From positions 32,490,001-32,554,000 of the forward strand of contig CM097885.1 of the NCBI GenBank assembly GCA_044892525.1: DNA of 64,000 nt, in the 5' to 3' direction. Both the position numbers and the translations under genes were made by a program. The notes below the pieces were generated by a model. That model was given only the letters and a program-made list of their open reading frames with translations, was not told the DNA's origin and did not search any database. This DNA is from Schmidtea polychroa (taxonomy: Eukaryota). Positions 20,006 to 45,817 of this stretch are shown here, in pieces; the stretch's first letter is position 1; each line of letters opens with the position of its first letter.

Positions 20006-20029
20006 GAATTAGAATTTTAACACTATAAA

Positions 20030-21275: not shown

Positions 21276-21283
21276 TTTAATAA

Positions 21284-22294: not shown

Positions 22295-22318
22295 TTATTA
22301 ATAATTTAAAATGAATCT

Positions 22319-23083
22319 TCAAACCTGTTTCAAATGTAAATACATTGAAATCTCTTCTCCATTAAAATCAATCAATTCTCCTTCTTGATTAAGAATTTTA
22401 AAATTAATATCCATTATATATTTTCTACATAAAGGTAAATAATTTGGAGGATTCATTCTTTCAACTATTTTATATCCCATAGGAACTGTGTTTGAGGGAA
22501 AGGAATATAAAACATTTGTTTGTTTACCATTATTATAAGAACCTGTTATACAATCGCAATGAATATTTATTGTGTTTGTATTTATTATTTTGATAATATG
22601 TTCTGATGTTATTATTTTATCTTCTTTTATTGTTATATCCATAGGTTTAAATCCTAAAACTGTGTGAAAGAAACAATTATCTAAAAAACTAATTTTTATA
22701 TTCTTCAAAGTCATTACACATTTTGAAGTTGGTATATCCATTTTAATTTTAATTCCTTCATTTGTTTTTTTAGAAAGTATATCATTTAAATCTTTTATCT
22801 CATATGCCCCAGGTTCTATTGTTATAATTTCTGGTTTATGCCCATCACGAGTTTGAATAGTAAATTTATTATTATCTTTAGTTATATTAAAAATAGTATT
22901 ATAAGCACAAAACCATAATAGCCCCAATTCATAATTTAAATTTTGATCTAATTTAATTGAATCTTGAAAGTTTATAGTAAACTCTGATTCTTTTGAATTT
23001 ATAGATAAAGTTCTTGAATATTTATCTGACATTATGTTTACCATTTTTTTTAAATTATCTTCCGGAGGGTTGTGAAGCTCCAT
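22319..23083 (-). CDS. Minor capsid protein (penton, single jelly-roll)
   Basis: 254 aa; YELGL, IEPGAYEI.DLN, INIHCDCITGSY.NG and YLPL...I.F.I.NQ.GELIDFNGE motifs typical of Polinton mCP. Confidence 0.9.
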   Translation of the reverse strand: MELHNPPEDNLKKMVNIMSDKYSRTLSINSKESEFTINFQDSIKLDQNLNYELGLLWFCAYNTIFNITKDNNKFTIQTRDGHKPEIITIEPGAYEIKDLNDILSKKTNEGIKIKMDIPTSKCVMTLKNIKISFLDNCFFHTVLGFKPMDITIKEDKIITSEHIIKIINTNTINIHCDCITGSYNNGKQTNVLYSFPSNTVPMGYKIVERMNPPNYLPLCRKYIMDINFKILNQEGELIDFNGEEISMYLHLKQV

Positions 23084-23131
23084 TTCTTTAGTAGTAAATT
23101 CATATAGTAAAAATCCTTATAGTAAAAATCC

Positions 23132-24499: not shown

Positions 24500-24521
24500 T
24501 TTAATGGTATCAAAAATGGTA

Positions 24522-25115
24522 TCATTTTGGTAAAGGATCCGTTGGAAAGGGCTTCAAGTATAAACCTTTGCCATTTTTAGTTTTACAAAGACATCCATTC
24601 TTTAAAGATTTACATATTTTTTTTAAATCTTCTTTATCTTTTGAAGATAAAGATTCAGATGTAGAAATTTGATTTTTTAAAAAATCATTTAAACCTCTAC
24701 CTTTATAAGGATCAAGATAGAGACCTTTGCCCTGAGACTTTTGCCGACTCCCCTCATATGGATTAAGATAGAGACCCTTTCCAACGGACACTCCCCCTTT
24801 AGCTTGCCCTACCTTCTTCATTGAATCGATTTCAGTTTGAAGTTTTTCTTTTTCTAGGTCTGTCTTTTGAGATTCTTTAGCTTTTTGAACTGTAGTTGCA
24901 ATTCCTCCAGCTATTCCAGCAGCACCTGATAAACCAGCAATGATTGCAGGTATTAAAGCAGCTAATGGAAGAATGCCACCTTCTTTAGCTTCGTGGATCT
25001 TCGCTCTAACTTGTTCTTTTACATGTTTTCCAATAAAATATTTTTTACCATCAATTACTACTGATTTATTTTTATTTGAATTTATTAATTCTTGCAAAGA
25101 TTCTTCAGTTGTCAT
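24522..25115 (-). CDS. pX/Mu-like virion core protein with GKGLYL repeats
   Basis: 197 aa; EGGILPLAALIPAIIAG resembles the adenovirus pX GG(F/I)LP hydrophobic motif; three GKGLYLxP repeats. Confidence 0.75.
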   Translation of the reverse strand: MTTEESLQELINSNKNKSVVIDGKKYFIGKHVKEQVRAKIHEAKEGGILPLAALIPAIIAGLSGAAGIAGGIATTVQKAKESQKTDLEKEKLQTEIDSMKKVGQAKGGVSVGKGLYLNPYEGSRQKSQGKGLYLDPYKGRGLNDFLKNQISTSESLSSKDKEDLKKICKSLKNGCLCKTKNGKGLYLKPFPTDPLPK

Positions 25116-25130
25116 TTTATAATAAACAAA

Positions 25131-25922
25131 ATGGATATTTGGAAACCAATTTTAAATAGACATAAGAGTAAATTTAATAATAAAGTATTTCCTGATAATT
25201 TTAGATTATTAATTGTTGGTTCTTCTGGATGTGGAAAGAATGTACTTGTTTTGAGAATGTTACTTGAAGATGATTTTTTAGATTATAATAATTTAATCTT
25301 TTATTCTACAACCATAAATCAACCAGAATTACAACTTTTGAAATGTGGATTTGAAAATAAATTAACTAAAAAAGCAATAATTGATATTTTTAAAAATCAA
25401 CATAGGTGTCCTGAAGAAGTTTTTCAACCTTGTGATATGGTTGATTGGTATAAGGAAAAGATTTTAGAATCAGATATTAGTAATAAAAATGATTATATTT
25501 GTGAAGAAGGGCAGGAGGCAATTCAAGTTTTATTCTCTAATAAACCTGAAGATGTTTTACATTGTGATTTACTTCCTAAAGATAAAAAGAATCTAGTTAT
25601 ATTTGATGATGTTGTTAATATGAAAAATCAAGAGATTCAAAAGAGTTACTTTACACGAGGTCGACATAATAATTGTAATGTTATTTATATATCTCAAACA
25701 TATTATGCTTTAGATAAAAATTCAATAAGAAATAATTCCAATTGTTTTATATTTTTTAAATTAGATCGCCGTGATAAGAATATGATTTATAATGATTTAT
25801 TTTCAAATGTTGAACCTGATAAGAATATGTTTGATATGTTTGTTGATAATCATTGGAAAGAAAAATATAATTATATTTATTTGGATAGAGAAGAAGCTGA
25901 AATATGGAAAAGTTTGTTTTAG
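25131..25922 (+). CDS. FtsK/A32-like genome packaging ATPase
   Basis: Walker A GSSGCGKN, Walker B LVIFDD, FTRGRH arginine finger, SQ and IRNN motifs. The ATG at 25131 (AAAATG) is preferred over the TTG at 25092. Confidence 0.93.
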   Translation: MDIWKPILNRHKSKFNNKVFPDNFRLLIVGSSGCGKNVLVLRMLLEDDFLDYNNLIFYSTTINQPELQLLKCGFENKLTKKAIIDIFKNQHRCPEEVFQPCDMVDWYKEKILESDISNKNDYICEEGQEAIQVLFSNKPEDVLHCDLLPKDKKNLVIFDDVVNMKNQEIQKSYFTRGRHNNCNVIYISQTYYALDKNSIRNNSNCFIFFKLDRRDKNMIYNDLFSNVEPDKNMFDMFVDNHWKEKYNYIYLDREEAEIWKSLF

Positions 25923-25933
25923 GGCTTGTCGAC

Positions 25934-26896
25934 TTAAAAATCTGTTTTCTGTAGTTCATTATTATAAAATCTACCTAATATTTTTTCATTATTTAAATCA
26001 AAGATGCTATATGTTATTGGAGTTGTATAATGTATTTTATTTATAATAAAAATTTCATTTGTCCATTTTGCTGTGAATCCTTTTTCAAATTTATTTTTAT
26101 ATTTAAATATTCTTACTCGGTCACCAATTTTAAACTTTGGTTTTTCAATAACATCATTTTCAATATTTACCACTTTAATGGTTTCAGGCTTCATGGAAGC
26201 ATTTAAAGGTGTTAATTTTATAGAACTATGTACATCATTATTATATTCATTTACAATCTTTTGTAACAATTCATTGTTCCATTTTTGTTTTCCAATAGCA
26301 GTAAAATATTTCCACATTTTATTTTTTAATGTTCTATTTAATCTTTCAACTACGACTGCTTTTCCTTCGTTTTCTGTTGAATATAATTTAATATCATTTT
26401 CATTTAAAAACTTTGTAAAAACTTTGTTATAAAATTCTGTTCCTTTATCACACCATAAATATTTTGGGATTCTTTGATTTTCTTCAAATATATTTTCAAA
26501 TGCTTCTGTAATAGAATATCCTGTTTTATTTTCTAAACATCTTGCAAAAGCAAATCTTGTATATAAATCTATTACAGTTAAAATTATTTTATATTTTTCA
26601 GGGTCTGATGATTTGGGCATAAAGACTAAATCTGCAGACCATGTTTGATCTTTTTCATGTACTTGAACTTTTAAATATTTTTTATTTTTTCTAAATTCAT
26701 GGTGTAATTCCTTTGCATATTTTATTTCTGATTCTGTTGGGGTTTGTAAACTAGTCTTGGCTGTACTCTCGAGGGATCTTTCAATCTCTGCTTGTTCGAT
26801 AATCTTTTTATAAGCAACATCTTTTGCTTTCCTAGGAAGTCTTGCACCCATGGTGATCGGACTGTGTCCTAAGCCTATGAAAATCTTACCTTTCAT
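25934..26896 (-). CDS. int: Retroviral-type (rve) DDE integrase, probably the 3' part of a PLA2-integrase fusion
   Basis: WSADL, WCDKGTEF and VVERLNRT (DDE triad), HSSI..TP, FKIGDRVRI, FEKG...W..EIF; no chromodomain. Confidence 0.95.
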   Translation of the reverse strand: MKGKIFIGLGHSPITMGARLPRKAKDVAYKKIIEQAEIERSLESTAKTSLQTPTESEIKYAKELHHEFRKNKKYLKVQVHEKDQTWSADLVFMPKSSDPEKYKIILTVIDLYTRFAFARCLENKTGYSITEAFENIFEENQRIPKYLWCDKGTEFYNKVFTKFLNENDIKLYSTENEGKAVVVERLNRTLKNKMWKYFTAIGKQKWNNELLQKIVNEYNNDVHSSIKLTPLNASMKPETIKVVNIENDVIEKPKFKIGDRVRIFKYKNKFEKGFTAKWTNEIFIINKIHYTTPITYSIFDLNNEKILGRFYNNELQKTDF

Positions 26897-26917
26897 TGCT
26901 AATTTAACTAGAGCTCT

Positions 26918-27319
26918 TTAAATCTTTTCTTGGGTTGATGGATTTTGGATACTATTTAAATCATGTATTAAATTCACATCTGCAACATGTCTATCTCTAA
27001 GATTTGTTGAATTGTATGCAATGTCATATTTTAAAGCTGCTTGATCAATTCTATTTATTGGTTCTTCTCCTTGTTTGGGATTATTATTTTCATCTAATCT
27101 AATATCTAATCTTGTTCCTGGTCCAGTATAGTTGTGTTTAAATAAATGTCTTTCACCTGGATATTTTTCTGTAGTAAAAGGTTTTAATATTGAAGATGTT
27201 GTTTTTGAAGATTGCAAATCGCCTCCTGTATGTTTTTTAGTTTTAAGATGGCTTGCTTTATGATGTCTTGTAACTTGACAATTACAAGTTTCACATCTCC
27301 AATATTTATTTAAAGACAT
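26918..27319 (-). CDS. Zinc finger plus parvovirus-like phospholipase A2 domain, in frame with the integrase across one TAA
   Basis: CETC..H.....H finger, then HNYTGPGT.L..RL, PINRID.AALKYDIAY and R..AD. The catalytic HD appears as YD. The TAA at 26918-26920 is followed in frame by RALVKLAMKGK..GLG. Confidence 0.85.
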   Translation of the reverse strand: MSLNKYWRCETCNCQVTRHHKASHLKTKKHTGGDLQSSKTTSSILKPFTTEKYPGERHLFKHNYTGPGTRLDIRLDENNNPKQGEEPINRIDQAALKYDIAYNSTNLRDRHVADVNLIHDLNSIQNPSTQEKI

Positions 27320-27348
27320 TTTAAAATGTTAAAATATCAGGGATTATA

Positions 27349-28641
27349 TCAAGAATCTCCCCTAACATTTTCGATTATTGAAATCTTTCCACCATATAAT
27401 TTCATTTCTATTTTCTTTTCTTCTAATATTAATGTATATACTTTAGCTTTAAAATTAGAATCCTTTGTTACATGAAGTGTAACATCAACATTATTTATGG
27501 CTAGGCGATCATCTTGGTCTGAAACATTTATACAAAATATAGAATATAAATTTTTGAAATCTTCTAAACTTAATTGCGGTTCAACTTTGAAATCATAACA
27601 TGTTTCAATATAATTTAGATATGGGAATATGTTTTCATTATTTTCAATATTAAATTCCATTCTATTTATTGGATAATAAGAACTATTTAATTGAATTTGG
27701 ATTGTTTTTAAATTATCAACTCCAATCTTTTGAATAAACAAGTTGTTATTTTTTTGAAAAGATGAATCTACTTCTTTGAATCCAATCAAGATATATCTTG
27801 GTCGGTATGCTAAATTTGCTACCTTTATAGAATATGTTGAACCCTCTGTCATACTAAATTCACTACAGATTCTATTTAAATAATTTACATTTATAGACTT
27901 GTTGGAATTTAATCTTTCAAGGAGTTTAATCTCAGAATGTGGGTTTAATGTCCATTCAGGTATATGTAATTCAAGTGTTGATAATTTTAATTTAGCTTTT
28001 GTATCTACAGCTCCATAGAACAATCTTTTATCACCTTCTACTCTATTACAGATGAATTCTATAAAAACATTATGAAGTATACGATTATAGTTTTGAAGGA
28101 ATCCAAACAAGTGTTTTAATTCAAAATAACCTTCAAATTTTTTAGATTTATAAAGTTCAGCTCTTTTATAGTAACCATGGTTTACATCTAAACCATCTTT
28201 ATCTAAATCCCCTTTATTAACATCAGGAATCCAACCTGTTAATTCACCATATTCATTTTTATAATCACAACCAGTCAAAATAAAATTTAACATTGTAGAA
28301 TATACTCCCGGATGTAAAACAGCTTCAATTTCTGATGATCCTAGTTTTAATCTCATATTGGAGAATAAATTTGGAAAGAAATTATTTTCTAGGGTTATAT
28401 CTTTGTTTGCTTCAATTTCTAATTCGATTTTATAATATAATTTGGCATTACAAATATCTATAGGGTTTGATGTTTGAAGAGATTGAAAAACTATATCACC
28501 CCTACGATTTAAGTTTGCAATAGATCCTGAAGTTGGGGAGATTTTAAGTACATCGTTTTTCTTGATTTCATGAGTAAATTCTTTATTATAATCAAGATTT
28601 AATTTATTTTTTTCTTGAATTTTAAGATTTATATTATTCAT
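27349..28641 (-). CDS. Major capsid protein (double jelly-roll)
   Basis: 430 aa beta-rich ORF; NNFFPNLFS..RL.LG...IE, LKHLFGFL..Y, PRYILIGF, LN...YP and F..LYSIFCI.VS motifs typical of Polinton MCP. Confidence 0.9.
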   Translation of the reverse strand: MNNINLKIQEKNKLNLDYNKEFTHEIKKNDVLKISPTSGSIANLNRRGDIVFQSLQTSNPIDICNAKLYYKIELEIEANKDITLENNFFPNLFSNMRLKLGSSEIEAVLHPGVYSTMLNFILTGCDYKNEYGELTGWIPDVNKGDLDKDGLDVNHGYYKRAELYKSKKFEGYFELKHLFGFLQNYNRILHNVFIEFICNRVEGDKRLFYGAVDTKAKLKLSTLELHIPEWTLNPHSEIKLLERLNSNKSINVNYLNRICSEFSMTEGSTYSIKVANLAYRPRYILIGFKEVDSSFQKNNNLFIQKIGVDNLKTIQIQLNSSYYPINRMEFNIENNENIFPYLNYIETCYDFKVEPQLSLEDFKNLYSIFCINVSDQDDRLAINNVDVTLHVTKDSNFKAKVYTLILEEKKIEMKLYGGKISIIENVRGDS

Positions 28642-28697
28642 TTTTATATATTAAAATTTACACACACACAATAGGATTAATTAAATATATTATGTAA

Positions 28698-28771
28698 GCC
28701 ATTATAGCGGAGTGGGAATAGGCTTCAATTTTATCACCGGGAGTACCGGGTTCAATTTTCGATTTTGGTCA
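28698..28771 (+). ncRNA. tRNA-like Pol III unit 1 (Asp/Glu-like 3' half)
   Basis: A-box TAGCGGAGTGG (28705), B-box GGTTCAATT (28749), GCCA/TGGT acceptor pairing and a T7 terminator at 28773; anticodon arm degenerate. Confidence 0.65.
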
Positions 28772-28931
28772 ATTTTTTTCGATATTTTTTTTTCAACGGA
28801 ATCTGATTCAGCGTACTGATTTTAGTATATATTTAAATTTTCAGATGGATCTGAGTGGTAGTTGTCGAGAAAATGAATAATTAATTATTAATTTCATCAA
28901 TAAATAGTCACACATTAACAACTTATTTCAT

Positions 28932-29005
28932 ATTGAGTATAGCTTAGTGGTAATAGCACTCGACTGCATTGCCAATACCAATGGGTTCAAATCCCATTTC
29001 GGTCA
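28932..29005 (+). ncRNA. tRNA-like Pol III unit 2 (tRNA-Cys-like)
   Basis: A-box TAGCTTAGTGG (28940), D-stem GCT/AGC, CTGCA anticodon-like loop, perfect T-arm ATGGG-TTCAAAT-CCCAT and a T8 terminator at 29006; anticodon stem unpaired. Confidence 0.8.
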
Positions 29006-29172
29006 TTTTTTTTCAAATTTTTTTTTTAAACAAAATATTGATCAGCATACTCGATTTAGTACTTGTACAAATTTTAAAGGTGATTGGTCAACGGCAACTC
29101 TTGGAAATTTAAGATCAAAAACGTTTTAACTTGAATCGATTATTTATAGTCTAAAAAATGACAAAAATTCAA

Positions 29173-29245
29173 ACCTTGATGGCGCAGTGGGCTAGACTGA
29201 CACAGTGGTTCAAATAGATAGCGGTTCAAATCCTAACTGTGGTTA
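29173..29245 (+). ncRNA. tRNA-like Pol III unit 3
   Basis: A-box TGGCGCAGTGG (29180), B-box GGTTCAAATCC (29223), ACC/GGT acceptor pairing and a T8 terminator at 29247. Confidence 0.7.
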
Positions 29246-29413
29246 GTTTTTTTTCAACATAAAAATAATATTAAAAATTTGAAAATAATAGTGTGGGTAT
29301 CTTATATTTATAAAGTACTTGTATATTTTATTTTATTTATTTTATTTTATTTTATTTTTTTATTAATTAATTATTTTTTAAACATAAATATGAAAAAAAA
29401 AATATTGAAACGG

Positions 29414-29486
29414 GTGATGGTGGCGAACCGGTAATTATCGCCACCTGTCTTTCGAACACCCCCGGATCGATTCTATAATGTGCACA
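29414..29486 (+). ncRNA. tRNA-like Pol III unit 4 (Asp-like), possibly with an extended 3' trailer
   Basis: A-box TGGCGAACCGG (29421), TATCGCCACCTGTC resembling the tRNA-Asp anticodon arm 5' side, B-box-like GGATCGATTC (29464), and an 8-bp hairpin GGTGGCGA/TCGCCACC. No immediate long T-run. Confidence 0.55.
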
Positions 29487-29840
29487 TTTATTTCTTGGTT
29501 GTTTTCGGACCTCTTTCGGATTCGCTTTCGAATTCATTTGTACTTTCGAGCAGCACGCTTAAAACGCCGTTGAAATCGACTTCGTGAGCGAGAAGCGAAT
29601 AATAAGGCGTGCTGCTATTATCGGATTGATTCTGATGTATGAGTCTGGCCAGCTTGTATATTGGAAGAGATTTGATAAACGAAAGAGGTTGATAAATAAA
29701 AAAAAAATGATCCGGATCAAAAAAAACTGTTGAGGGGACAGTGAAAAAAAAAAAAAAAAAAAAAAAATACCACTGTCCCCTCAGAGCAGTTTTACTATTT
29801 TCATAAAATTTTTAATTTTTAAAACTTTCAAAACCTTAAG

Positions 29841-30173
29841 GTGATCAGGCGACCTAGATCATTATGAATTAGGTAATCTGATATTCTTATAACATTAAAT
29901 CCTTATAACATTTAATCCTTAAGACCAAGTAGTGAGAAATCTATGCACCCCGTTACCTTTTCTCGGAATTACTAATCTATAAATACATCTATTCCGAACT
30001 TTTTTACTTTTAAGGGAAGAAATTAAGGGTTAATGGCAATAGGGGACAAAGTTTAAAAGTTAAAAAAAGTGAAGAATATGGGGTAAAAAAGCATATAAAT
30101 GTGGAAAATATGGGTCAATAGCGCTGTTTTTTTTGAGGGTGGGGGTGCTGGGGTGCATAGATTCCTCACTACT
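29841..30173 (-). repeat. Polinton right terminal inverted repeat (333 bp)
   Basis: Reverse complement of 15221-15552. Confidence 0.95.
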
Positions 30174-32269
30174 AAGTTTCATTCTCTTTTTTAAAATATA
30201 GCAATTACAAGTGACTACAACACAAAAACATGTTTTTCTACTTATGTAGCAGAACTACCATTTTTAAGAAATAAAATTAATAATAATATATCATCTTTTT
30301 GACAAAATTTATTTTTTTATAGAAACATATCTAGTAACATGGGACAATAAAAACGGAGAAAACTATCCACTATTACGGGACAGATCAAAAATCATAATCA
30401 ATTTTCATTACTAAATTTTATTGTTTAAACAAAATTTAAATACCCAAATAAATTGCCATAATTAATTTAAAGAATTTAATTTTATTAAATAATATTTAAA
30501 TTCTACTTAAATTAGATAGTTTATATGAATGTGGTAAATTCTATTTTCTTTAACAATTATTCTAAATAAACAATAGTGATTGAATATTTGTGATTGAAAA
30601 GCCTATATAATAAATTCTTAAATAAATGTTAAAAATATTTGAAGCTACTAATAAATTATGGTTAAAATAGAATTAAAAGATTTTTTCTTGAATTAAATAA
30701 ATAAATTTCAAATATTTGTTTTATTTATGAAAACAATAGTAAATTCAATATGCAAATTAAAACAAACACTTTACAACAGAAGGAATTGAACGCTCAATAA
30801 ACAAATGAAAACGGAAATTAATAAATCCAAATAAATTGATTTATATTTATTACAATTATTTATCTTTTTTAATTAATTAAAGTTTTACTAAATATGAAGC
30901 TAGAAAAAAAACATTAAAACTTTATAATTTAAATTCGTTTTCTCTAGAAATTGAATTTTCATCAACAAAAATATTTTAAAATGTAAATCTAATTGTAAAT
31001 TTGAAAACATTAATTGCAATTGAAATTTTTAAAATAATTTTAGTGAATTTGTTTTATATTTCATCAGCTTAGAATAAACTGAAAACAATAAATAATATTT
31101 TTTAATTTTAAAAGCGTCATATGGGATATTAAGAATCAAATTTCATTTTGTAGAATATATTACAAAAGAACTAAAACAATACAAATTTTGGATATTTTTT
31201 AATAAAATGTTTTAATAATTATTGAACAAAATTTCGAAATTTGTTTTAATGAATAATATTTGCAAATTTAAACTGATTTTTCATAATTATCTAAAAAAAT
31301 TATGTGCCGGTCACAATATCATAATTATCATACAAGATATATTATTTATAAGATATTTAAATATTAAAAATTAAATATTATATTAAGTAAATAAATTATA
31401 TTTGTTTATCTATACACTTTAATTTTACTTTCCGAAATCAAACATGTTTAACGAAATCACTGAAGTTTCTAAAAAAGTCGAATCATCAGAAGTAGTTGTT
31501 GAAGTTGAAGAAACCTAATAAATCGATCAAGGTCAATCAACAAATGTCATAAATAAATGTTGCATTTCAATACTGAATCATATCTTAATAATAACTGGTC
31601 GATCGTGGAATTATTTATGAAAATATAGTTAAATAAATTGGTAAACTATTTTTGCAGTGTTTATTAGTTAAAGTTATTTCGACCTAAAATGGGTCCTTTT
31701 CACTGATCTTTCTTTCTATCTTCCTCTCTATTTGAATTTATTTTTTTAATTATTTTAATTTGTTTAAATTGTTATACTTTTTCCGAAATATATCAGGCGA
31801 TAAACTAGATTTAACTCAAAAGAAATAGTAACCAAATCCCCAACAAACAAGAAAGTGAGTAGATTACACTTGAAGAAGATCAGCAAAACGAGAAATCGAT
31901 ATATTAGGACTATTATTTATTCAAAAAAAATAATTAAGGGTTCCCAAATTTGTATTTTAGATGGATGTATTTATTTGATCTATCATTTTATGTTCGTTTT
32001 TTAATAAATAATAGTTTGCTTTCATAAATATAGGTAAATATATGGAACAATTTGATATGGTCTTGATATTAATTTATTACTGCTGCTTTTATAAGCATTA
32101 CAGTGCAACTAAACAAAATAATTATCAAGCACTTCAGTTGTGTTTCGGCTCATTCAAGTAGGTAGATAGAGGCCCCCTGCCGCAACCCCCCCCCCCTCCC
32201 CCCCCCTGCGGCAAGAATTTTTTTGCGGCACGATTTTTTTTGCGGCAACTTTTTGATTACGCAATTTTT

Positions 32270-34590
32270 CAGACTATAGTGAGGGGGTCTCCTTGGTCCT
32301 GGGATTTTCAATACAAATAAATTTTTTTCAATAAAAAAACGATGGTCCTGGGATTTTAAATACAAAAATTTTTTTTTCAATACAAAAACGATGGTCCTGG
32401 GATTTTCAATACAAATAAAATTTTTTCAATACAAAAATCCGACTACCACTAAAAAAGCATGGAATTTTCACACTATAGTGAGGGGGTCTCGATGGTATTG
32501 GGATTTTCAATACAAATAAAATTTTTTCAATACAAAAGTCCGACTACCACTAAAAAAGCATGGAATTTTCATACTATAGCGAGGGGGTCTCGATGGTCCT
32601 GGGATTTTCAATACAAAAAATTTTTTTTTCAATACAGAAACGATGGTCCTGGGATTTTCAATACAAATAAAATTTTTTCAATACAAAAATTCGACTACCA
32701 CTAAAAAAGCATGGAATTTATCAGACTATAGTGAGGGGGTCTCGATGGTCCTGGGATTTTCAATACAAAAAAAATTTTTCAATAGAAAAAGGTGGTCTAC
32801 ACTAAAAAAGCTTGGATTTTATCACACTATAGTGAGGTGTCTCCTTGGTCCTGAGAATTTCAATACAAAAAGCATGGATTTTTCTAGGTCAATTCAGGTG
32901 GGTCTCCTTGGTCCTGAGAATTTCAATACAAATAGGCGGTCTCAATAAAAAAGCATGGCAATTTAAGGTCTCAGGATATTTTCAATACAAAAAGGTGGTC
33001 TACACTAAAAAACATTGGTAATTTAAGGTCTCAGGATATTTTCAATACAAAAAGACGGTCTTCAATAAAAAAGCATGGTAATTTAAGGTCTCAGGATATT
33101 TTCAATACAAAAAGGTGGTCTACACTAAAAAACGTGGTAAATCTTTTAAATTACAGTAAATTATGGTCCTAAAAATTGAATTACAGTAAATTATGGTCCT
33201 AAAAAATTAAATTACAGTAAATTATGGTCCTAAAAAATTAAATTACAGTAAATTATGGTCCAAACTTTTCAATTACAGTAAATAATGGTCCTAAAAATTA
33301 AATTACAGTAAATAATGGTCCAAATTTTTCAATTAAAGTAAATAATGGTTCTAAAAAATTAAATTACAGTAAATTATGGTCCAAATTTTTCAATTACATT
33401 AAATTATGGTCCTAAAAAATTAAATTAAAGTAAATTATGGTTCTAAAAATTGAATTAAAGTAAATTATGGTTCTAAAAAATTAAATTAAAGTAAAGTATG
33501 GTCCAAATTTTTAAATTAAGTAATCAATGGTAAAAAATTTTAAATAAGTAAATTAAAGTAATAATTTTTAAATTAAGTAATCAATGGTAAAAAATTTTAA
33601 ATAAGTAAATTAAAGTAAGATTTTAAAATTTATTAACATAAAGTTGAAGGTGTTTGAGAATTGAAATTTTTTAATGGAAATTTTTATGGAATAATTTTTT
33701 AAGTTAATTTTTAATGGAAATTTTTATGAAATATTTTTCAATGATAATTTTAGATGGAAATTTTTAAGATAATTTTTAATGAAAATTTTTATGAAATATT
33801 TTTCAAAGACAAATTTTAATAATCATTCAACAACAAACCAACAACTTAGTACCAACAACCAGTAACTTACGAACATGTATTAACAACCAGATACCTACAA
33901 CTAGTTACTAACAACCAGTTACGTGATACCAAGTACCTACAACTGGATACTAACAACATGTTACCAGATACCAAGTACTTACAACTAGTTACTAACAATC
34001 AGTTACCTGCTACCTAGTACTTACAACTAGTTACTAACAACCAGATACCTGCTACCAAGTACTTACAACTAGTTACTAACAACCAGTTACCACCTACCAA
34101 GTACTTACAACAAGATACCAAGTACTAAGCACTGTCAACTAGATACCAAACACTTACAACTAGATACCACGTACTAACTAACTCTCAAACAACTAGTTAC
34201 TAACAATCAGTTACCTGCTACCAAGTACCTACAACCAACTACCAAGTACTAACAACCAAAAACAATCAACCAACTAGCTACCACCTACCAAGCACTGACA
34301 ACCGTCAACAACCAGTTACTAAGCATTATTAACAAACTACCAAGTACCTACAACTAGATACTAACAACCAAAAAACAACCAACCAACTAGGTACCTGATA
34401 CCAAGTACTCACAACCGACAACTAGTTACTAACAACCAGTTACCTGATACCAAGTATATACAACCAACATCAACCAGGTACTAAGCATTATCAACCAACT
34501 ACTAAGTACTAACAACCGACAACAACCAGGTACAAGATACCAAGTACTAACAACCGACAACAACCAGGTACTAAGCATTAATTACCAAGC
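32270..34590 (+). repeat. Left arm satellite blocks (GGTCCTGGGATTTTCAATAC repeats; ~30-bp AATTACAGTAAATTATGGTCC repeats; AAATTTTTAATGG repeats; ACAACTAGTTACTAACAACCAG repeats)
   Basis: Four successive tandem arrays at about 32270-33135, 33148-33625, 33640-33820 and 33830-34590. Confidence 0.9.
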
Positions 34591-34591
34591 A

Positions 34592-36095
34592 TTAATTACA
34601 ATCAGTAGAAAACCTTTTCAAAAAGTCTAAATTTAACAAAAATGTTGATTTTCATCAAAAAACCACAACTCAATCACTTTAAAACACCAAGTGAAATTCA
34701 AAATAATTTAAATTAGAATGAAAGACTAATGAATTCTAATTTACAAAACATTCTTCTTTTAAATGATAACTACTGACTTATTATTGCAATGTAAAAATCG
34801 CATTAAATAAATACTTATTGTTGATCAGTTTTATTATATATACTCTGAGTTTATCCGACAGGATGTTTTGACCCCCTAAGGGTACTGGTCGTAAGGGTAC
34901 TGGTCGTAAGGGTACTGGTCGTAAGGGTATTAGTCGTAAAGGTACTAGTCGTAAGGGTATTGCTAACACTCAACCCCCCACCTACCCATTAAGTAGTTAC
35001 TAAGTACTACCAACCAGCTAACAACTAGATACCATGTACTAACAACCACCATCAAAACCCATCGAGAAATTAACAAATATCAACCTACAACTATATAACA
35101 ACAATCAGTAAACAACACTGTACCAACTACCAAATACAAGATACCAACAACTTAGTACCAACAATCAACTAACAACACATAAAAATAATAGCAATTAAAT
35201 ACAAAATATTCTTCATCGCATACACTATTTTCTTATCAAAATCTAAAAAGTCAACCAACTACTTACAACCAGCAACTATGTACTAACAAATTGATCTTTA
35301 AAAGCAAAAACTCATCACTTGAAATATTAGATGGAAAATTATTTGAACTCAAGGCATCAATAACTAGGTAAAAATTGATTAAATTATTGTAAAAAATTTA
35401 AATTATTCGAAATAAATATCATAAAAATTTAATTAATAGATAAGAAAGAATTCTAATCATTAATCATCCAGTAAATAAAAAAAATACTGATCATTCAAGT
35501 TGAATCAACTAAGATAATAAATTAATAAGATAAGATCTAGTAGATAATTGATTTAGATTGAATAAATTAATTGAAATAAAATTAATTTTAATTATTTTTT
35601 TAAAAGTACTCAAATTGATTGACTAATTGCTCAATATATTCAAAAAAAACAGTATAAATTCATTACAATTATCAAAGTCATCAATCTACAATAAAAATAA
35701 TTATCATTAAATTCCAAAAGAGACTGATAACTAATGATAACATCTAATAAACCAGTAAATTCATTTAAATGACAATAATTGGTATATTCAAGTGAATTCT
35801 CTAATAAAATCATCTAAAAAGCATCAAATTTCCCTGAAATATCTCTATCTTTTAAGATTAGTATCTTATCGATAAGTACTTGTTAATTAATTAATACTTG
35901 TTATTCACCTCAAACTAATAAGATTCCTTAAAATCCCTTAAATGACTATATTTCAACCCTTAATCCATATTATTACAAATATCATCTAAAAAGCATCAAA
36001 TTTCCCTGAAATAACTCCAACTTTAAAGATTAGTATTTTATCGATAATTACACTTAAAAGGATATATATTTCCCTCAGACTAATAAGATTCCTTA
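34592..36095 (+). repeat. Internal inverted repeat, left copy (~1.5 kb)
   Basis: Reverse complement of 38592-40102. The ORF track gives nearly the same peptide on opposite strands (34781-34969 and 39719-39922). Confidence 0.93.
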
Positions 36096-38591
36096 AAATC
36101 CCTTTAAATGACTATAATTCTAACTTTAATTCCTATTATCACGAATATTATAAAACATGTAAAATAATTTGATCATTAACCCTAAATAATTTATAAAATC
36201 TAATGATAAAACCAGTTATAATTAAATTTTTATTCTAAAAATAAATCACTCTATTTGAAATTTTAAATAAATATTACTACAATATAACTGACTAGGTCCC
36301 ATTGAAAGATTAAATTTATCCATTCAATAAAATATATTTCTTCAAATGATCATTTTTACCAATATTCAACCGATTTAATTACTAATTAAAATCAAGATTT
36401 CTTTCAATAAAGATCAATTTTATTTAGTTGTTGTCGATGTTTTAAGTCCATATTTTTCAACTTTTGTCATTCTCCGTCTAAATAAAGATAAAAATAAATT
36501 AAAGTTGATATCAATCCCAATTATCTGTAAAGTTTTCATTGTCAAAACCAAGTAAATCGATCATTATCCCTACTTAATAGAACATTGTTCTAAAACATAA
36601 CTCTAAATTAATATACAATGAATTAATCACAACCTAATAAAACGATATAATTATTATTGATTCATAACTGACTAATTGCAATTTCCCCTAAAACATTGAT
36701 ATTTGACCAACATTACCCATGTAAATATTCAAAAGATTCCCATCGAAACCCTTCCCTCATTAAAAGCAACCGACTATATCTTTCTTAAAATGAAATAATC
36801 CCATATTAACCGACTATATCCCATCTTATCCGATCTCTCAGCAAATATTTCTACACTTTTAAACATCTAACCGAATATATCCCTTAATTCTACCCACTTG
36901 AATCCTCCTTTAATTCAATTCAGTCTTAAAATCCTTAAAGAAATTCAAAATATGACTTAATTGTTAAAGACACTAGGCATTCTTCCATTGAAATAATTTA
37001 GAAGCTAAATAATAAGAGCCCACTAACCAATCAAAATCATGGAAGGGCAAAAAAATATATTACGTTGCGGTATTTTAAAAGTTAAATATATTTAAAAACA
37101 CATTTTGACGCTAAAGTCGACTTATGTAACATACATAATAAACTAATTATTTCCTACAAATATTTACCATCAAATATCTAACTAGAGATGATATATATTG
37201 ATTGATCATAATTCTTCATCGATTCAGCCAATCATTTTCAAGCACTGTCAGCAAACTAAATTTCTGTATATCCTACAATAATTATCAAGTAAATTTAAAG
37301 TCCCTGATAAAGTTAACTGGTTTCTTAGCTTATGTTTTTTTAAAGTTCATCAATGTGTAAATATTCTTAGAAAATTATTGAAAAATTATTTAGTCAAATA
37401 CATTACAAAGTTATCATCAAAAATCACTTAATTATTAACCTAATTGTCAATGAAATTAATTTTTATTTAAAAACTATTCAATAAAATACAACTAATTATC
37501 AAGAAATTAATTAAATTTACCAATTTAATTTATCAGTCAACATGAAAATCTTAGAAAATTATTCAATATCTTCATCAAAATTTATCCTATCACTTGATTA
37601 TTGTACAAAAATAAATTTTTATTTAAAATTATCAAGAAATTTATTAAATTTACCTTAGAATTAGCATTAAATTTTTAAATATTCATTCAATAAACATGAA
37701 ATTCACAAAAAACGATAAAAATTCACAAAAATGATAGAAATCAGCAAAAATAATAGAAAATTACAAAAAATGATGGAAATTCACAAAAAACGATAAAAAT
37801 TCACAAAAATGATAGAAATTTACTTGAATATTTACTAAGACCATCAACTCTAAAAATTATCAATGAATGCCTTAAACAACAAATTTGCCTAAATAATCAT
37901 TCAAATAAAAGCATTAAATACCTTTACGACTAATACCCTTGCGACATGTTGAATGTGAGTAGTACCCTTGTGAGCAATACCCATAGGGGGACAGAATATT
38001 TTGTATATATTAATTAACTCATTCAAATTTATCATTGAATCAGTAAAATTATCATAAATTTCGATAAAAATTCTAAAATGGTAAGCAATGTAAAGAGAAA
38101 TATTCTTTAAACTTTGATAAAACTAACAATGAAGGTGGTAAGAATCATCATTAAAGTGAGGAAATTATTCATTACTCGATGATAAATTCAAATGGGTGAA
38201 AATAATTGGTAGAATAATTCATTAATGGATCATGAGAGGTAAATACTGAGAAGTGGCATAGATAAAATGAAGGTTGATAAGAATGGAAATATATTAATTG
38301 AATTTATTTAAAATTATTTCATAAAATTTATAAATTTAATAAAAAAAAGAAATATTTGTGGGGGAATAATTAATCAAAATCGGTGGAATATAATTGATTA
38401 AATATCGGGGGTGTGGGGTTATAGGTGATTAATTAATGGAAAATCGGGGGAATATAAGTGAATAATTAATGGAGAATCGGGGAATATAGGGGATTAAATA
38501 GTGGGATAATGAGAATCGGTGGAATATAAGTGAGAAGGATATGTAATTTAAATTATTTTATTACGTAACAAGCCGTGACTAATTTATTACA

Positions 38592-40102
38592 TAAGGAATC
38601 TTATTAGTCTGAGGGAAATATATATCCTTTTAAGTGTAATTATCGATAAAATACTAATCTTTAAAGTTGGAGTTATTTCAGGGAAATTTGATGCTTTTTA
38701 GATGATATTTGTAATAATATGGATTAAGGGTTGAAATATAGTCATTTAAGGGATTTTAAGGAATCTTATTAGTTTGAGGTGAATAACAAGTATTAATTAA
38801 TTAACAAGTACTTATCGATAAGATACTAATCTTAAAAGATAGAGATATTTCAGGGAAATTTGATGCTTTTTAGATGATTTTATTAGAGAATTCACTTGAA
38901 TATACCAATTATTGTCATTTAAATGAATTTACTGGTTTATTAGATGTTATCATTAGTTATCAGTCTCTTTTGGAATTTAATGATAATTATTTTTATTGTA
39001 GATTGATGACTTTGATAATTGTAATGAATTTATACTGTTTTTTTTTGAATATATTGAGCAATTAGTCAATCAATTTGAGTACTTTTAAAAAAATAATTAA
39101 AATTAATTTTATTTCAATTAATTTATTCAATCTAAATCAATTATCTACTAGATCTTATCTTATTAATTTATTATCTTAGTTGATTCAACTTGAATGATCA
39201 GTATTTTTTTTATTTACTGGATGATTAATGATTAGAATTCTTTCTTATCTATTAATTAAATTTTTATGATATTTATTTCGAATAATTTAAATTTTTTACA
39301 ATAATTTAATCAATTTTTACCTAGTTATTGATGCCTTGAGTTCAAATAATTTTCCATCTAATATTTCAAGTGATGAGTTTTTGCTTTTAAAGATCAATTT
39401 GTTAGTACATAGTTGCTGGTTGTAAGTAGTTGGTTGACTTTTTAGATTTTGATAAGAAAATAGTGTATGCGATGAAGAATATTTTGTATTTAATTGCTAT
39501 TATTTTTATGTGTTGTTAGTTGATTGTTGGTACTAAGTTGTTGGTATCTTGTATTTGGTAGTTGGTACAGTGTTGTTTACTGATTGTTGTTATATAGTTG
39601 TAGGTTGATATTTGTTAATTTCTCGATGGGTTTTGATGGTGGTTGTTAGTACATGGTATCTAGTTGTTAGCTGGTTGGTAGTACTTAGTAACTACTTAAT
39701 GGGTAGGTGGGGGGTTGAGTGTTAGCAATACCCTTACGACTAGTACCTTTACGACTAATACCCTTACGACCAGTACCCTTACGACCAGTACCCTTACGAC
39801 CAGTACCCTTACGACCAGTACCCTTAGGGGTTCAAAACATCCTGTCGGATAAACTCAGAGTATATATAATAAAACTGATCAACAATAAGTATTTATTTAA
39901 TGCGATTTTTACATTGCAATAATAAGTCAGTAGTTATCATTTAAAAGAAGAATGTTTTGTAAATTAGAATTCATTAGTCTTTCATTCTAATTTAAATTAT
40001 TTTGAATTTCACTTGGTGTTTTAAAGTGATTGAGTTGTGGTTTTTTAAAAAAATCAACATTTTTGTTAAATTTGAAAAGGTTTTTCTACTGATTGTAATT
40101 AA
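38592..40102 (-). repeat. Internal inverted repeat, right copy (~1.5 kb)
   Basis: Reverse complement of 34592-36095, with one extra 15-bp CCCTTACGACCAGTA unit and a few small differences near the outer end. Confidence 0.93.
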
Positions 40103-40333
40103 AATTATTATAGAAGCTGTATAAAAAAAATTAATTTTAAAAAGCATTTCATAAAATACAATAAAGAATATTTAGTTGATTGTTGGTACTTGGTTGTTTT
40201 TACTTGGTTGTTTGAGAGTTAGTACGTGGTATCATGTTGTTAGTATTTGGTACTTATTTGTCAGCACCTAGTTAAAAATATTTAGTAACCGATTGTTGGT
40301 AACTGTTGAATTATAATTATTATTATTTTAATT

Positions 40334-40412
<79 letters not shown>

Positions 40413-40764
40413 TTATTATTATTCCATTTAAATTTTCATTTGACTTTGAAAAATATTTCATTGAAATTAACTTAAAAAATAAAATTTCCATTTAAATTTT
40501 CATTAAAAATTACATTTCTCAAAAAAGTTGGTGGTTATTCAAACTTTTGATAATAAATTTAAAAATCTTAGTTTAATTTACTTATTTAGCTTTAATTTAA
40601 AATTTGAACCATTGGTTACTAAATTTTAAATTTTGAGCCTTAATTTCCTTAATTTATCCTTAATTTACCTAATTATTCTTTATTACTAACTTTTTACACC
40701 ATAATTTACTTAACAACTAATTATAACCATTATTTTCATATTTAACCAATAATTTCATGTGGTC

Positions 40765-43570
40765 ATCTGGTTGTAACTGCTTGGTATATAGTTGACAGTG
40801 CTTAATATCTTGTACTTGGTTGTTGGTACAATGTTGTTGGTATCTTGTACTTGGTAGTTGTAGCTAGTTGTTAGTATCTATTTGTAGGTTGATAATTGTT
40901 GTTAGCTGGTTGTTGTGGGTTGTGAGTGCTAGGTATCTAGTACCTAGTTAGCTGGTTGTAGCTAGTTAATGGGTAGGTGGTAGCTAGTTGTTAGCTGGTT
41001 GTAGCTAGTTAAAGGGTAGGTGGTTGTAAGTACATAGTTGGTTGTAGGTACTTAGTAGTTGGTAACTGGTTGTTGGTATCTAGTTGTAGGTATCTGGTTG
41101 ATGTTGGTTGTAAGTAGTTGGTAGGTGGTTGTAGGTACTTAGTAGTTGGTAATTAATGCTTAGTACCTGGTTGTTGTCGGTTGTGAGTACTTGGTATCAG
41201 GTACCTAGTTGGTTGGTTGTTTTTTGGTTGTTAGTATCTAGTTGTAGGTACTTGGTAGTTGGTTAAAAATGCTTAGTACCTGGTTGTTGTTGGTTGTAGG
41301 TACTTGGTAGGTGGTTGTTAGCTGGTTGTTAGCACTTAGTAGCTAGTTAATGGGTAGGTGGGGGTTGAGAGTTAGTTAGTACGTGGTATCTAGTTGTAAG
41401 TACTTGGTATCTGGTAACTAGTTGCTAGTAACTAGTTGTAGGTATCTGGTTGTTAATACATGTTCGTAAGTTACTGGTTGTTGGTACTAAGTTGTTGGTT
41501 TGTTGTTGAATTATTATTAAAATTTGTCTTTGAAAAATATTTCATAAAAATTTTCATTAAAAATTATCATAAAAATTTCCATCTAAATTTATCATTGAAA
41601 AATATTTCATAAAAATTTCCATTAAAAATTAACTTAAAAAACTATTCCATAAAAATTTCCATTAAAAATTACCATTGAAAAATATTTCATTAAAAATTTC
41701 TTAAAAAATTATTTCATAAAAATTTTCATTAAAAAATTTCAATTCTCAAACACCTTCTATTATTTGTTAATAAATTTTAAAATCTTACTTTAATTTACTT
41801 ATTACATTACTTATTTAAAAATTATTACTTTAATTTACTTATTTAAAAATTATTACTTTGATTTACTTATTTAAATTTTTTACCATTTATTACTTAATTT
41901 TAAAATTTGGACCATAATTTACTGTAATTTAATTTTTTTAGAACCATTGATTACTGTAATTGAAAAATTTGGACCTTAATTAACTTTAATTTAATTTTTT
42001 TAGAACCATAATTTACTTTAATTAAATTTTTAGAACCATTATTTACTGTAATTGAAAAATTTAGACCATTATTTACTGTAATTTAATTTTTTTAGAACCA
42101 TTGATTACTGTAATTGAAAAATTTGGACCTTAATTAACTTTAATTTAATTTTTTTAGAACCATAATTTACTTTAATTTAATTTTTAGAACCATTATTTAC
42201 TGTAATTGAAAAATTTAGACCATTATTTACTGTAATTTAATTTTTTTAGGACCATTATTTACTTTAATTGAAAAATTTGGACCATTATTTACTGTAATTG
42301 AAAAATTTATACCATTATTTACTGTAATTGAAAAATTTGGACCATAATTTACTGTAATTTAATTTTTTAGAACCATTATTATTATTCCATAAAAATTATT
42401 CCATAAAAATTACCATTGAAAAATTTTCATTAAAAAATTTCAATTCTCAAACACCTTCAACTTTTTGTTAATAAATTTTAAAATCTTACTTTAATTTACT
42501 TTAATTTACTTATTTAAAATTTTTTACCGTTGATTACTTAATTTAATTTTTAGGACCATTATTTACTTTATTTGAAAAATTTGGACCATAATTTACTTTA
42601 TTTGAAAAATTTGGACCATAATTTACTTTATTTGAAAAATTTGGACCATAATTTACTTTAATTTAATTTTTAGGACCATAATTTACTGTAATTTAATTTT
42701 TAGGACCATTATTTACTTTATTTGAAAAATTTGGACCATAATTTACTGTAATTGAAAATTTTTGACCATAATTAACTGTAATAGAAAAATTGGGACCATA
42801 ATTTACTGTAATTTAAATTTTTAGGACCATAATTTACTGTAATTTAATTTTTAGGACCATTATTTACTTTAATTGAAAAATTTGAACCATTATTTACTGT
42901 AATTGAAAATTTTTGACCATTATATACTGTAATTGAAAATTTTGGACCATTATTTACTGTAATTTAATTTTATAGAACCATTATTTACTTTAATTGAAAA
43001 AATTTACCACGTTTTTTAGTGTAGACCACCTTTTTCTCAGGACCAAGGAGACCCCCTCACTATAGTGTGAAAATTCCATGCTTTTTTATTGAAGACCAGC
43101 TTTTGTATTGAAAAAAAAAATTTGTATTGAAAATCCCAGGACCAATGAGACCCACCTCGCTATAGTCTGAAAATTCCATGCTTTTTTAGTGGTAGTCGGA
43201 TTTTTGTATTGAAAAAATTTTATTTGTATTGAAAATCCCAGGACCATCGAGACCCCCTCACTATAGTCTGAAAATTCCATGCTTTTTTTATTGAGACCGC
43301 CTTTTTCTATTGAAAAATTTTTTTTGTATTGAAAATCCCAGGACCATCGTTTTTTTATTGAAAAAAATTTTTTTGTATTGAAAATCCCAGGACCATCGAG
43401 ACCCCCTCACTATAGTCTGAAAATTCCATGCTTTTTTTATTGAGACCGCCTTTTTCTATTGAAAAATTTTTTTTGTATTGAAAATCCCAGGACCATCGTT
43501 TTTGTATTGAAAAATATTTTTTTGTATTGAAAATCCCAGGACCATCGAGACCCCCTCACTATAGTGTGGA
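40765..43570 (-). repeat. Right arm satellite blocks (mirror of 32270-34590, different copy numbers)
   Basis: The same four arrays in reverse order and orientation. Confidence 0.9.
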
Positions 43571-45817
43571 ACAATTGCGTAATAAAAAGTTGCAACAAAA
43601 AATGCGAGTTGCAACAATTTTTTTTTCTAGGGGGGGGGGGGGGGTAATTGTTGCAGTGGGCCACTATCTACCTACTCATTCATTTTAATTTACAAATTTT
43701 ATATAAATCTTCCATGTATAAAATGTAATTGGGATTAATGTGATTATTAACTGATTATGTAAACGTAAGTTAATTATGTTAAGGCTTTGTAACGAAAATT
43801 TTTTTTAAACATTTATTTTAGATTTTATTTTTAGAATTTTATATTTAAAGCTTTTTAGTGAGAATTTAGTTTAAGGCTTTTTAATATAATTTAAAATTTA
43901 TAAATATTGAAAATTTAAAAAATTTAATTTATTTAAACAAATCTAGAATATTTGACTTGGTTTATCACACTCATATTGTCACACCCATATGCATTCATTA
44001 TGTTAATCATATAGTGACTATATTGAATACTGGGGGAAATCTATCACATTTTTACTCAACTTTTAAATCATTGTTCACATTTTTCGTTAGTCGTTAGTTG
44101 TGAAGTTCATGAATTTCATCACTAGAAGTTTGAAGAACCCGAAAGAGTCACCGTTTAGAAAAATATTGTAGCGGGACAATCGGGATGCGTGTATGTATTG
44201 TTTTGTATAACTAAAAAAGAAAGAGGAATAATAAAAATAATATAATATAATGGAACAATTAATTATTACAATTATTATTACAATTAATTATTAATTATTA
44301 CAATCAACTAATTAATCAACCTTAATGTATCTTAAGTTTGTTTAGGATAGTCCTTGTTATTCGATGAATATTGGTGGATATTAACTTTGAATTGAATATT
44401 CTTGGTTATTTGGTGGATATTGTTTATATTAGATTTGAATGGATTGTTCTTGGTTATTTGATGGATATGATTTATATTAACTTTGAGTTGAATATTCTTT
44501 AATTTTTACAAATCTTGTTGCTTTAATGTTATTGATTTTTTTCCAATCAATTTTCTAAAGCGATAATTTACCAAGGTAAATTATCGCTATAAAGTTTTTT
44601 TTAATAAAAAAATAAATAAAAAACAAATTCTTCTCCACGTGCAACGTGTGAGATTGTAATTTACATTTAAACCATATAACTAACAAATAAAAAAATAAGA
44701 TATTACAATACATTACAGTCCTTGATAATATTTTTGATTTTATTTAAATAATTAAAATTATTTAAATTTACATAAACATTTATCAAAGAACTTCTTTATT
44801 GATTCACTTTTCAAGATCATCGCACGTTAATATATTGAGTATTTTACATAGATAAGTCTGGGTACCCCTGGTGATGCATTTAAAATTGATGTAAATTATC
44901 AATTTTTATATGAACAAATTCATAAAGCACAGACTAATTATTAATTCTATTTAAAATCACTGCTTACTCTTTGCAGAATAAAAATAGAGTGAAAGTTAAA
45001 TATTTATTAATGAAAAATGTAAGAAATGAATAAATACAGTGGGAGATCTTGTCAGTTGATTGATTGTATACCACTCAAAAAACCACTCTAAAACCAGTGA
45101 TTATATATACCTCTCTTGCCGTATTTGAACGAAAAGGTTTATAAGTTTCTTTTTACAGGGATAATGGAAATGAATATTGTAGTGATCTAACAATAGAAAG
45201 TGAACCCCTTACAATTAATTTAAGAAAACCATTTTTTTATGTTTGTTTTATTTGATCGAGTTTATACGTTTGAATAAAAGTAGATTTTAATTGAATATTT
45301 AACATTTAAATAAAAGTTCTATTTAAAATCACTGCTTACTCTTTACAGAACAAAAATATAATGAAATAAAACCATTTTATTTATGATTATATTTTTGTGA
45401 TAAAATTACTCAAAATTTTTACACTTTTAAATTAGGCTTGAAAAGGAAGCTTCAATTCCTCTTTTTTGATGTAATGGTGAAATTATTGGTGAATTACAAA
45501 ACATAATGACACAATGTAAACTTTGATATTTTGTTTTTAATATTGACTGTATAATTTTGATAATAATTATGAAATATAATTTTCTAAATTAATGTTTTTG
45601 ATTTTATAAGCTTCTACTATTTGTAATGCTTCATTACTATTTGATCACAACAATATTTATATTCTCTCTGCTTTATTTACTTTAGCTTCCAGTTAAATGA
45701 ACGTAATTCTGTTAACTAGTTTCTCATCTAAAACCTAGAAATAATAATTGTTTATTGATATTATTAATACTTCTAATAAATATTTCGTTTAATACCTTTG
45801 GCGATTATTCTCAGAAC

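What the first reader, a model, noticed from the sequence alone, without database searches (positions are those of the whole stretch)
32157..43676. 11.5-kb gene-less palindromic element with a Polinton integration signature
Seen in sequence: 13-bp perfect terminal inversion (AGTAGGTAGATAG / CTATCTACCTACT), 5'-AG...CT-3' ends and a 6-bp TSD (CATTCA). This is the same signature as the autonomous Polinton 2 kb upstream (AGTAG start, 6-bp TSD), but the TIR sequence is otherwise different. The interior is four mirrored satellite arrays, a 1.5-kb inverted arm and a ~2.5-kb spacer, with no ORF. Established: AG/CT termini with 6-bp TSDs are the Polinton integrase hallmark. Inference: this is a non-autonomous, satellite-like parasite of Polintons whose near-genome length (11.5 vs 15 kb) might be kept for capsid packaging. 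It would also spread satellite DNA.
Basis: partly seen in the sequence, partly recalled or inferred. Interest (0 to 1): 0.78.

Follow-up and report, generated by a model that had tools for sequence, protein, structure and literature searches.

The report
Gene-less mirror-image Polinton passenger element
An 11.5-kb stretch of an animal genome has no genes, is about three-quarters mirror-image repeats, and has the AG...CT ends and 6-base duplication typical of virus-like Polinton transposons, so it likely moved by borrowing a Polinton's enzymes, though its helper was not found.

Summary
Observation confirmed. The element at 32157-43676 has a perfect 13-bp terminal inversion (AGTAG start) and a 6-bp TSD. 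It has four mirrored satellite arrays, a 1.5-kb inner arm and a 2.5-kb spacer; 77% is mirrored and no gene was found.

An assembly fold-back is unlikely. Arm identity is a patchwork (tips ~72%, satellites 81-96%, inner core ~99.9%), and contigs from two public runs of one study bridge the left junction. Summed contig depth rises about 50-90-fold over the tip, which points to a multi-copy family.

The neighbouring Polinton (14,953 bp, AGTAGT ends, 6-bp TSD) shares only five terminal bases, so the helper is unidentified. No genome was available, so other TSDs, empty sites and length distribution are untested.

Best reading: a non-autonomous foldback element likely mobilised in trans by a Polinton (0.72). 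Capsid-size selection is speculative (~0.2). Non-autonomous Polintons and satellite-armed foldbacks are each known; I did not find their combination in print. This scan noted similar elements before, in this genome (six notes used here, 10.9-17.7 kb) and in others.

The parts
32151..32156 (.). left target-site duplication CATTCA
32157..32169 (+). left perfect 13-bp TIR, AGTAG start
32170..32265 (+). left tip: C-run and TGCNNCA dyad repeats; about 72% like the right tip
32266..33140 (+). array A (49/101-bp units, 60-bp derivative on the left only); mirror at 43035-43571
33146..33630 (+). array B (30-bp); mirror at 41807-43004, there in two blocks
33662..33820 (+). array C (13/40-bp); mirror at 41533-41744; 33668-33950 is 96.5% to 41386-41668
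33837..34599 (+). array D (14-bp CAAC-rich); mirror at about 40759-41495
34592..36095 (+). left inner arm, with a 15-bp array at 34877-34959
36096..38591 (.). non-mirrored, non-coding spacer; degenerate copy of the 15-bp block at 37917-38004, where cumulative GC skew turns (37938)
38592..40102 (-). right inner arm; 1.44-kb core differs from the left by 1 substitution, one 15-bp unit and 1 base of an A-run
40103..40758 (-). right-only block: degenerate copies of arrays D, C, B and an (ATT)38 microsatellite
40759..43571 (-). right outer arm: arrays D, C, B, partial C, B, A
43567..43663 (-). right tip
43664..43676 (-). right perfect 13-bp TIR
43677..43682 (.). right target-site duplication CATTCA
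15221..30173 (+). context only: neighbouring Polinton/Maverick (pPolB, ATPase, integrase, PLA2-like, double jelly-roll capsid), 6-bp TSD AAGTTT; not shown to be the helper

Best explanation
This is an 11.5-kb gene-less element with mirror-image arms, AG...CT ends and a 6-bp target duplication, which was likely inserted by a Polinton/Maverick integrase supplied in trans and likely copied by a Polinton protein-primed polymerase starting at its AGTAG ends. Shown: the ends, TSD, lack of genes, mirrored modules, the real left junction and many related tips in the genome. Inferred: the AG at positions 1-2 repeated at 4-5 would allow a short jump-back at initiation. Strand-displacement copying would release a single strand that folds on itself. 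Template switches and heteroduplex repair in that state would have built the mirror arms, duplicated whole modules on the right, and re-copied the inner 1.44 kb most recently. Only the terminal 13 bp are held identical, as expected if they are what the borrowed proteins recognise. The helper is likely a Polinton family other than the neighbour.
For: TIR and TSD signature, matching the neighbour's own AG/CT ends and 6-bp TSD. Intact Mavericks have 6-bp TSDs and repeated end motifs tied to jumping-back (PMC8097293 passages). Left junction bridged at single-copy depth in 2 of 4 runs laid: X12 contig 31599-32220 and X15 contig 31549-32220. Summed depth over the tip bin vs single-copy level: X12 24,733 vs 342; X15 289 vs 6; X1 3,900 vs 43; an A>T variant at 32217 lies in 17, 2 and 14 contigs. 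Tip differences are concerted (CG vs AA at columns 25-26, with the complementary CG vs TT in the downstream inverted copies), which random decay after insertion would not give. Precedent for palindromic by-products of protein-primed replication: phi29 (PMC2175359 passage). Gene-free adenovirus vectors need only ITRs and a packaging signal, and short ones are packaged as direct and inverted dimers (PMC4189039 passages).
Against: No sequence link to any Polinton beyond 5 terminal bases: 0 credible blastn or tblastn hits with the neighbour's 11 proteins; 1 hit at E=0.035 among 172 fetched proteins, of which 120 were integrase relatives. AGTAGG is not one of the three end motifs listed for vertebrate Mavericks. 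No autonomous partner found. Only one TSD was seen. The two bridging runs are from one study and may be the assembly's source; X1 (another study) and X3 show no bridging contig. Summed contig depth is no copy number, and the C-run may attract unrelated contigs. A simple snap-back origin predicts identical tips, and these differ by about 28%.
Confidence: 0.72

Rival explanations
1. A classical foldback element (FB, Galileo or Tetris type) moved by a cut-and-paste DDE transposase unrelated to Polintons, with AG...CT ends by coincidence.
For: The anatomy matches Tetris: flanking domain, tandem-repeat outer domain, inner domain and non-coding middle (PMC4079207 passage). No Polinton sequence inside.
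Against: Tetris has 8-10-bp TSDs; here lengths 7-12 all fail and 6 fits. Ginger has TGT ends and 4-5-bp TSDs (PMC2836005 passages). The five terminal bases equal those of the Polinton 2 kb away.
Confidence: 0.14
2. An old Polinton-type insertion that lost its genes and was reshaped in place by satellite expansion and arm-to-arm gene conversion, so the 11.5-kb form never moved as such.
For: Identity is highest next to the spacer, as chromosomal palindrome conversion would give. The arms are unequal in length. Unbranched contigs run 64 bp into the element, so this tip has private variants.
Against: TSD 6/6 and TIR 13/13 are perfect while the next 87 columns differ by 28%, unlikely under neutral ageing (caveat: the 13-bp limit is defined by the first mismatch). 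No coding relic. The first array is present at thousands-fold depth in 3 of 3 organism runs.
Confidence: 0.11
3. A fold-back artefact of sequencing or assembly.
For: The inner arms are almost identical. No record spanning the whole element or the right junction was examined.
Against: The outer arms differ by 4-28% and in module number. The TSD is a direct repeat outside the inversion. The left junction is bridged in two runs. 77% of the query's words are held in one run.
Confidence: 0.03

Closest known systems
Polinton/Maverick elements (PMC8097293, passages read)
   Same: AG...CT ends, repeated end motif, 6-bp TSD, length of the same order (intact vertebrate elements 12.7-24.6 kb)
   Different: No pPolB, integrase, ATPase, protease or capsid gene. 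Mirror arms of 4-5 kb vs TIRs of 46-1,447 bp. End motif AGTAGG, not (AGT)2, (AG)3 or (AC)3A. At 11.5 kb it is below the reported range.
Non-autonomous Polinton derivatives: Polinton-1N1_DR (name seen in PMC9341505; N1 = non-autonomous is recalled Repbase usage), polB-less polintons of Pieris (10.1101/2025.02.07.637071, passages)
   Same: Mobile without the full gene set, presumably helped in trans
   Different: The Pieris elements keep other polinton genes. I could not see the structure of Polinton-1N1_DR. Here there is no gene and no similarity to the local autonomous copy.
Foldback transposons Tetris, FB, Galileo (PMC4079207, passages)
   Same: Long modular TIRs with tandem repeats, non-coding middle, source of satellite DNA
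   Different: 8-10-bp TSDs and Mutator or P affinity; Tetris TIRs up to 1.7 kb with one repeat type vs 4-5 kb with five here
Palindromic phi29 by-products and helper-dependent adenovirus genomes (PMC2175359, PMC4189039, passages)
   Same: Gene-free or palindromic linear DNA kept by protein-primed ends; inverted dimers
   Different: Laboratory products, not integrated or heritable. A one-end snap-back would have identical tips, unlike this element.

Membership tests
Polinton/Maverick (autonomous) | pPolB and retroviral-like integrase genes | tested here: not met
   No frame over 122 aa; no Pfam hit at cut-off in 21 frames; no credible tblastn hit
Polinton/Maverick (autonomous) | ATPase, protease and capsid genes | tested here: not met
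   tblastn with the neighbour's 11 proteins: best E=0.45
Non-autonomous Polinton derivative | 5'-AG...CT-3' termini | tested here: met
Non-autonomous Polinton derivative | 6-bp TSD | tested here: met
   CATTCA; lengths 3-5 and 7-12 fail; one copy only
Non-autonomous Polinton derivative | Repeated end motif for jump-back priming | tested here: inconclusive
   AGxAG present; not the canonical (AGT)2
Non-autonomous Polinton derivative | TIR shared with an autonomous Polinton of the same genome | not testable with these tools
   No genome held; the neighbour shares only AGTAG; viral and metagenome scans negative
Non-autonomous Polinton derivative | Dispersed copies with different TSDs | tested here: inconclusive
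Foldback (FB/Tetris-type) transposon | Long modular TIRs with internal tandem repeats around a non-coding middle | tested here: met
Foldback (FB/Tetris-type) transposon | 8-10-bp TSD (Mutator or P affinity) | tested here: not met
   vs PMC4079207
Ginger1/2 | TGTNR termini and 4-5-bp TSD | tested here: not met
   vs PMC2836005

The most novel reading that the evidence does not exclude
A heritable, gene-free satellite class of Polintons: giant mirror-image genomes built by template switching of the helper's protein-primed polymerase, padded with satellite arrays to stay within capsid-packaging size, and carried in Polinton particles. They would be natural 'gutless vectors' that spread satellite DNA and give indirect evidence for Polinton virions.
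Probability: 0.2. Interest if true: 0.85.

Novelty: new variant of a known kind. Interest (0 to 1): 0.58.

Why it matters
How Polintons replicate, and whether they are packaged, is still open. A gene-less passenger shows which cis-elements suffice: here apparently 13 terminal bases. Its patchwork of arm identities records how the folded intermediate is copied or repaired. If such families have a sharp lower length limit near three-quarters of their helper, that would be genomic evidence for encapsidation. It would also add Polinton machinery to the routes by which satellite DNA is dispersed. Homology-based Maverick screens, which start from integrase and polymerase hits, would miss these elements.

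Tried and rejected
No whole genome is held, so no genome-wide copy search was possible.

Collection scans: the terminal pattern gave 0 in metagenome contigs and 4 in viral contigs. All 4 are mid-contig, single-ended and share nothing else with the element or the Polinton proteins, so they are chance. The satellite pattern gave 0 in both collections. Relatives of the neighbour's integrase and capsid protein in viral contigs: 0 of 18 and 0 of 1 candidates confirmed.

Rfam over 30000-44000: 0 matches at E<=1, so no SRP-Alu module like the one noted for another family. No tRNA genes by ARAGORN.

A central gene was sought and not found: 48 frames of 35 aa or more in 34592-40420. I scanned 21 frames against Pfam: 19 of these 48 (trimmed of the stop) plus 2 satellite frames. 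Two weak hits (E 0.016, 0.046) fell below cut-off.

The inner 5.5 kb as a separate nested transposon: its flanking TTAA is palindromic and the flanks do not rejoin, and the arm shares modules with array D. Not favoured.

Subterminal hairpins: z = -0.9 and -2.0, not convincing. The bacterial promoter scan is irrelevant and at chance level.

Run X1 has no cover at 31788-31874 and 32049-32135, and small word shares were seen in 9 of 15 runs. Neither is used as evidence.

Earlier-note look-ups by sequence (tip, inner arm, spacer) gave 0 windows each. Kapitonov & Jurka 2006 was not available.
Full report
Observation. The element spans 32157-43676 (11,520 bp). Its first and last 13 bases are a perfect inversion, found nowhere else in the window at up to 2 mismatches. 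CATTCA flanks both sides; of TSD lengths 2-12 only 2 and 6 agree. Two random flank hexamers agree with P=0.0011. An AG-starting TIR of 13 bp or more with a 6-bp TSD appeared in 1 of 30 order-4 Markov windows. 76.6% of the element lies in mirrored alignments; the unmirrored parts are 36152-38591, 40103-40184 and 40273-40421.

Anatomy. From the left: a C-rich tip; array A (49/101 bp, then a 60-bp derivative); B (30 bp); C (13/40 bp); D (14 bp, CAAC-rich); a 1.5-kb inner arm holding a 15-bp array; a 2.5-kb spacer. The right side repeats these in mirror image, but B and part of C occur twice, and a degenerate D-C-B set with an (ATT)38 run sits next to the inner arm. Arm identity is a patchwork. 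Tip columns 14-100 have 58 matches, 23 mismatches and 6 gaps. Local pieces of arrays A and B are 81-96% identical, the C/D junction is 96.5% over 283 bp, and D is 87-93%. The inner 1.44-kb core differs by one substitution, one 15-bp unit and one base of an A-run. The spacer holds a 71-75% copy of the 15-bp block at 37917-38004, where cumulative GC skew turns, so it looks like a relic of earlier rounds of inversion (inference).

Coding. The longest frames (122 and 106 aa) lie in array A. Of 21 frames scanned, none reached a Pfam cut-off. tblastn with the neighbour's 11 proteins gave a best E of 0.45; with 172 fetched proteins, one hit at E=0.035. Rfam gave 0 matches at E<=1.

Is it real and repeated? 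No genome is held. 15 public runs hold parts of 30200-40100; 6 hold half of the words or more, from 2 studies. I laid 4 of the 15 on 29700-32300; all are short-read contigs. In X12 and X15 a single-copy-depth contig bridges the left junction with no substitutions and 64 bases inside the element. Both are from one study and may be the assembly's source; X1 and X3 show no bridge. Summed depth in the bin 32136-32222 is about 72, 48 and 92 times the single-copy level in X12, X15 and X1, and about 6,800, 16,000 and 8,200 times in 32223-32300, where array A begins. The tool warns that this is no copy number; I take it only as showing many related sequences.

The neighbour. 15221-30173 (14,953 bp) is a Polinton: AGTAGT ends, TSD AAGTTT, a TIR of about 360 bp at 97%, and Pfam hits for pPolB, the A32 ATPase, rve integrase, a PLA2-like domain and a double jelly-roll protein. 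It shares only AGTAG with the element; other DNA matches are AT-rich noise. It shows that the machinery exists in this genome, but it is probably not the parent. The host is an AT-rich animal.

Mechanism. Shown: ends, TSD, absence of genes, mirror modules. From papers: intact Mavericks have 6-bp TSDs and repeated end motifs expected to serve jumping-back, and their sizes vary by about 10% (PMC8097293, passages). phi29 SSB suppresses short palindromic DNAs during protein-primed replication (PMC2175359, passage; the primary 1997 paper seen only as a reference). Helper-dependent adenovirus genomes need only ITRs and a packaging signal, rearrange below 75% of wild-type length, and 15-kb ones are packaged as direct and inverted dimers (PMC4189039, passages). 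Inferred: a Polinton integrase inserted the element and a Polinton polymerase copies it from its ends; the displaced strand folds, and template switches or repair copy parts of one arm onto the other. A single snap-back cannot be the whole story, since the tips differ by about 28%. That difference probably predates insertion, because the TSD and terminal 13 bp are perfect and the tip changes are concerted. The 77% length ratio falls just above the adenovirus floor, but it is measured against an element that is probably not the helper, so it is only suggestive.

Comparison. The architecture is that of foldback transposons such as Tetris, which seeded a satellite but has 8-10-bp TSDs (PMC4079207, passages). 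Ginger ends and TSDs do not fit (PMC2836005, passages). Non-autonomous Polintons are known: Polinton-1N1_DR is named in PMC9341505 (one passage), polB-less mobile polintons are described in 10.1101/2025.02.07.637071 (passages), and Tlr1 was once so viewed (PMC5499653, passage). Passages of PMC6431247 and PMC3014272 added nothing on palindromic forms. In the listings of searches I saw no description of gene-less, multi-kb palindromic elements with Polinton ends. The library lacks most subscription papers, Kapitonov & Jurka 2006 and Repbase entries, any of which may describe such forms; no supplements were read.

Earlier notes of this scan report gene-less palindromic Polinton-ended elements of 10.9, 13.9, 15.1, 16.9, 17.5 and 17.7 kb in this genome and similar ones in other genomes. 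They are unchecked leads, selected for size, and are not counted as support. Look-ups with this element's tip, inner arm and spacer found no look-alike window, so this may be a further family. It seems to differ from those notes in its diverged tips, non-canonical end and satellite-built outer arms.

Verdict. The feature is real. It works like a non-autonomous Polinton passenger with foldback anatomy (0.72); membership cannot be closed until a helper with these ends is found. New variant of a known kind; interest 0.58.

Noticed in passing
window 15221-15466 and 29928-30173: Each TIR of the neighbouring Polinton holds an inverted copy of its own first 24 bp about 245 bp inside, a small foldback with AGT...ACT ends. 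Summed depth there is about 3,000-fold in X12 and several thousand-fold in X15, but near zero at 29961-30134 in X1: possibly a MITE-like family that differs between samples.
   Followed up: partly
window 28705-29255: A tRNA-like unit at 28935-29005 (Rfam tRNA 26.7 bits, E=0.005, below the gathering score of 29) and two more units that look A/B-box-like by eye, each ending in a T-run, in the Polinton's non-coding right part. Reminiscent of adenovirus VA RNA genes (recalled).
   Followed up: partly
window 29722-29795: A long hairpin with an A-rich loop inside the Polinton; the bins that hold it have high depth in X12, X15 and X1, and one X3 contig matches 29780-29817.
   Followed up: no
window 25934-27319: The PLA2-like domain and the integrase are two ORFs in this copy, but one 463-aa protein in the nearest relative P0053 (88-89% to each).
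   Followed up: partly
window 20030-20584: A 184-aa ORF that repeats the C-terminal part of pPolB (73% DNA identity to 19493-19954).
   Followed up: no
window 49436-52253: A hAT/SPIN-like transposase in pieces (Spin-doc zinc finger hit), interrupted by about 1 kb whose minus-strand frame 50233-50898 has weak cofilin and Ras-family matches: possibly captured host gene fragments.
   Followed up: no
window 46242-46481, 55095-55328, 60048-60397: Short palindromic MITE-like repeats; the first two are related (78%).
   Followed up: no
window 13067-14053: Intronless fatty-acid-hydroxylase / cholesterol 25-hydroxylase-like host gene 1.2 kb from the Polinton.
   Followed up: partly
window 32177-32250 and 43585-43655: TGCNNCA dyad repeats in the tips change in concert within each end (CG on the left, AA/TT on the right); read contigs show a third variant with CT. 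A candidate protein-binding site.
   Followed up: partly
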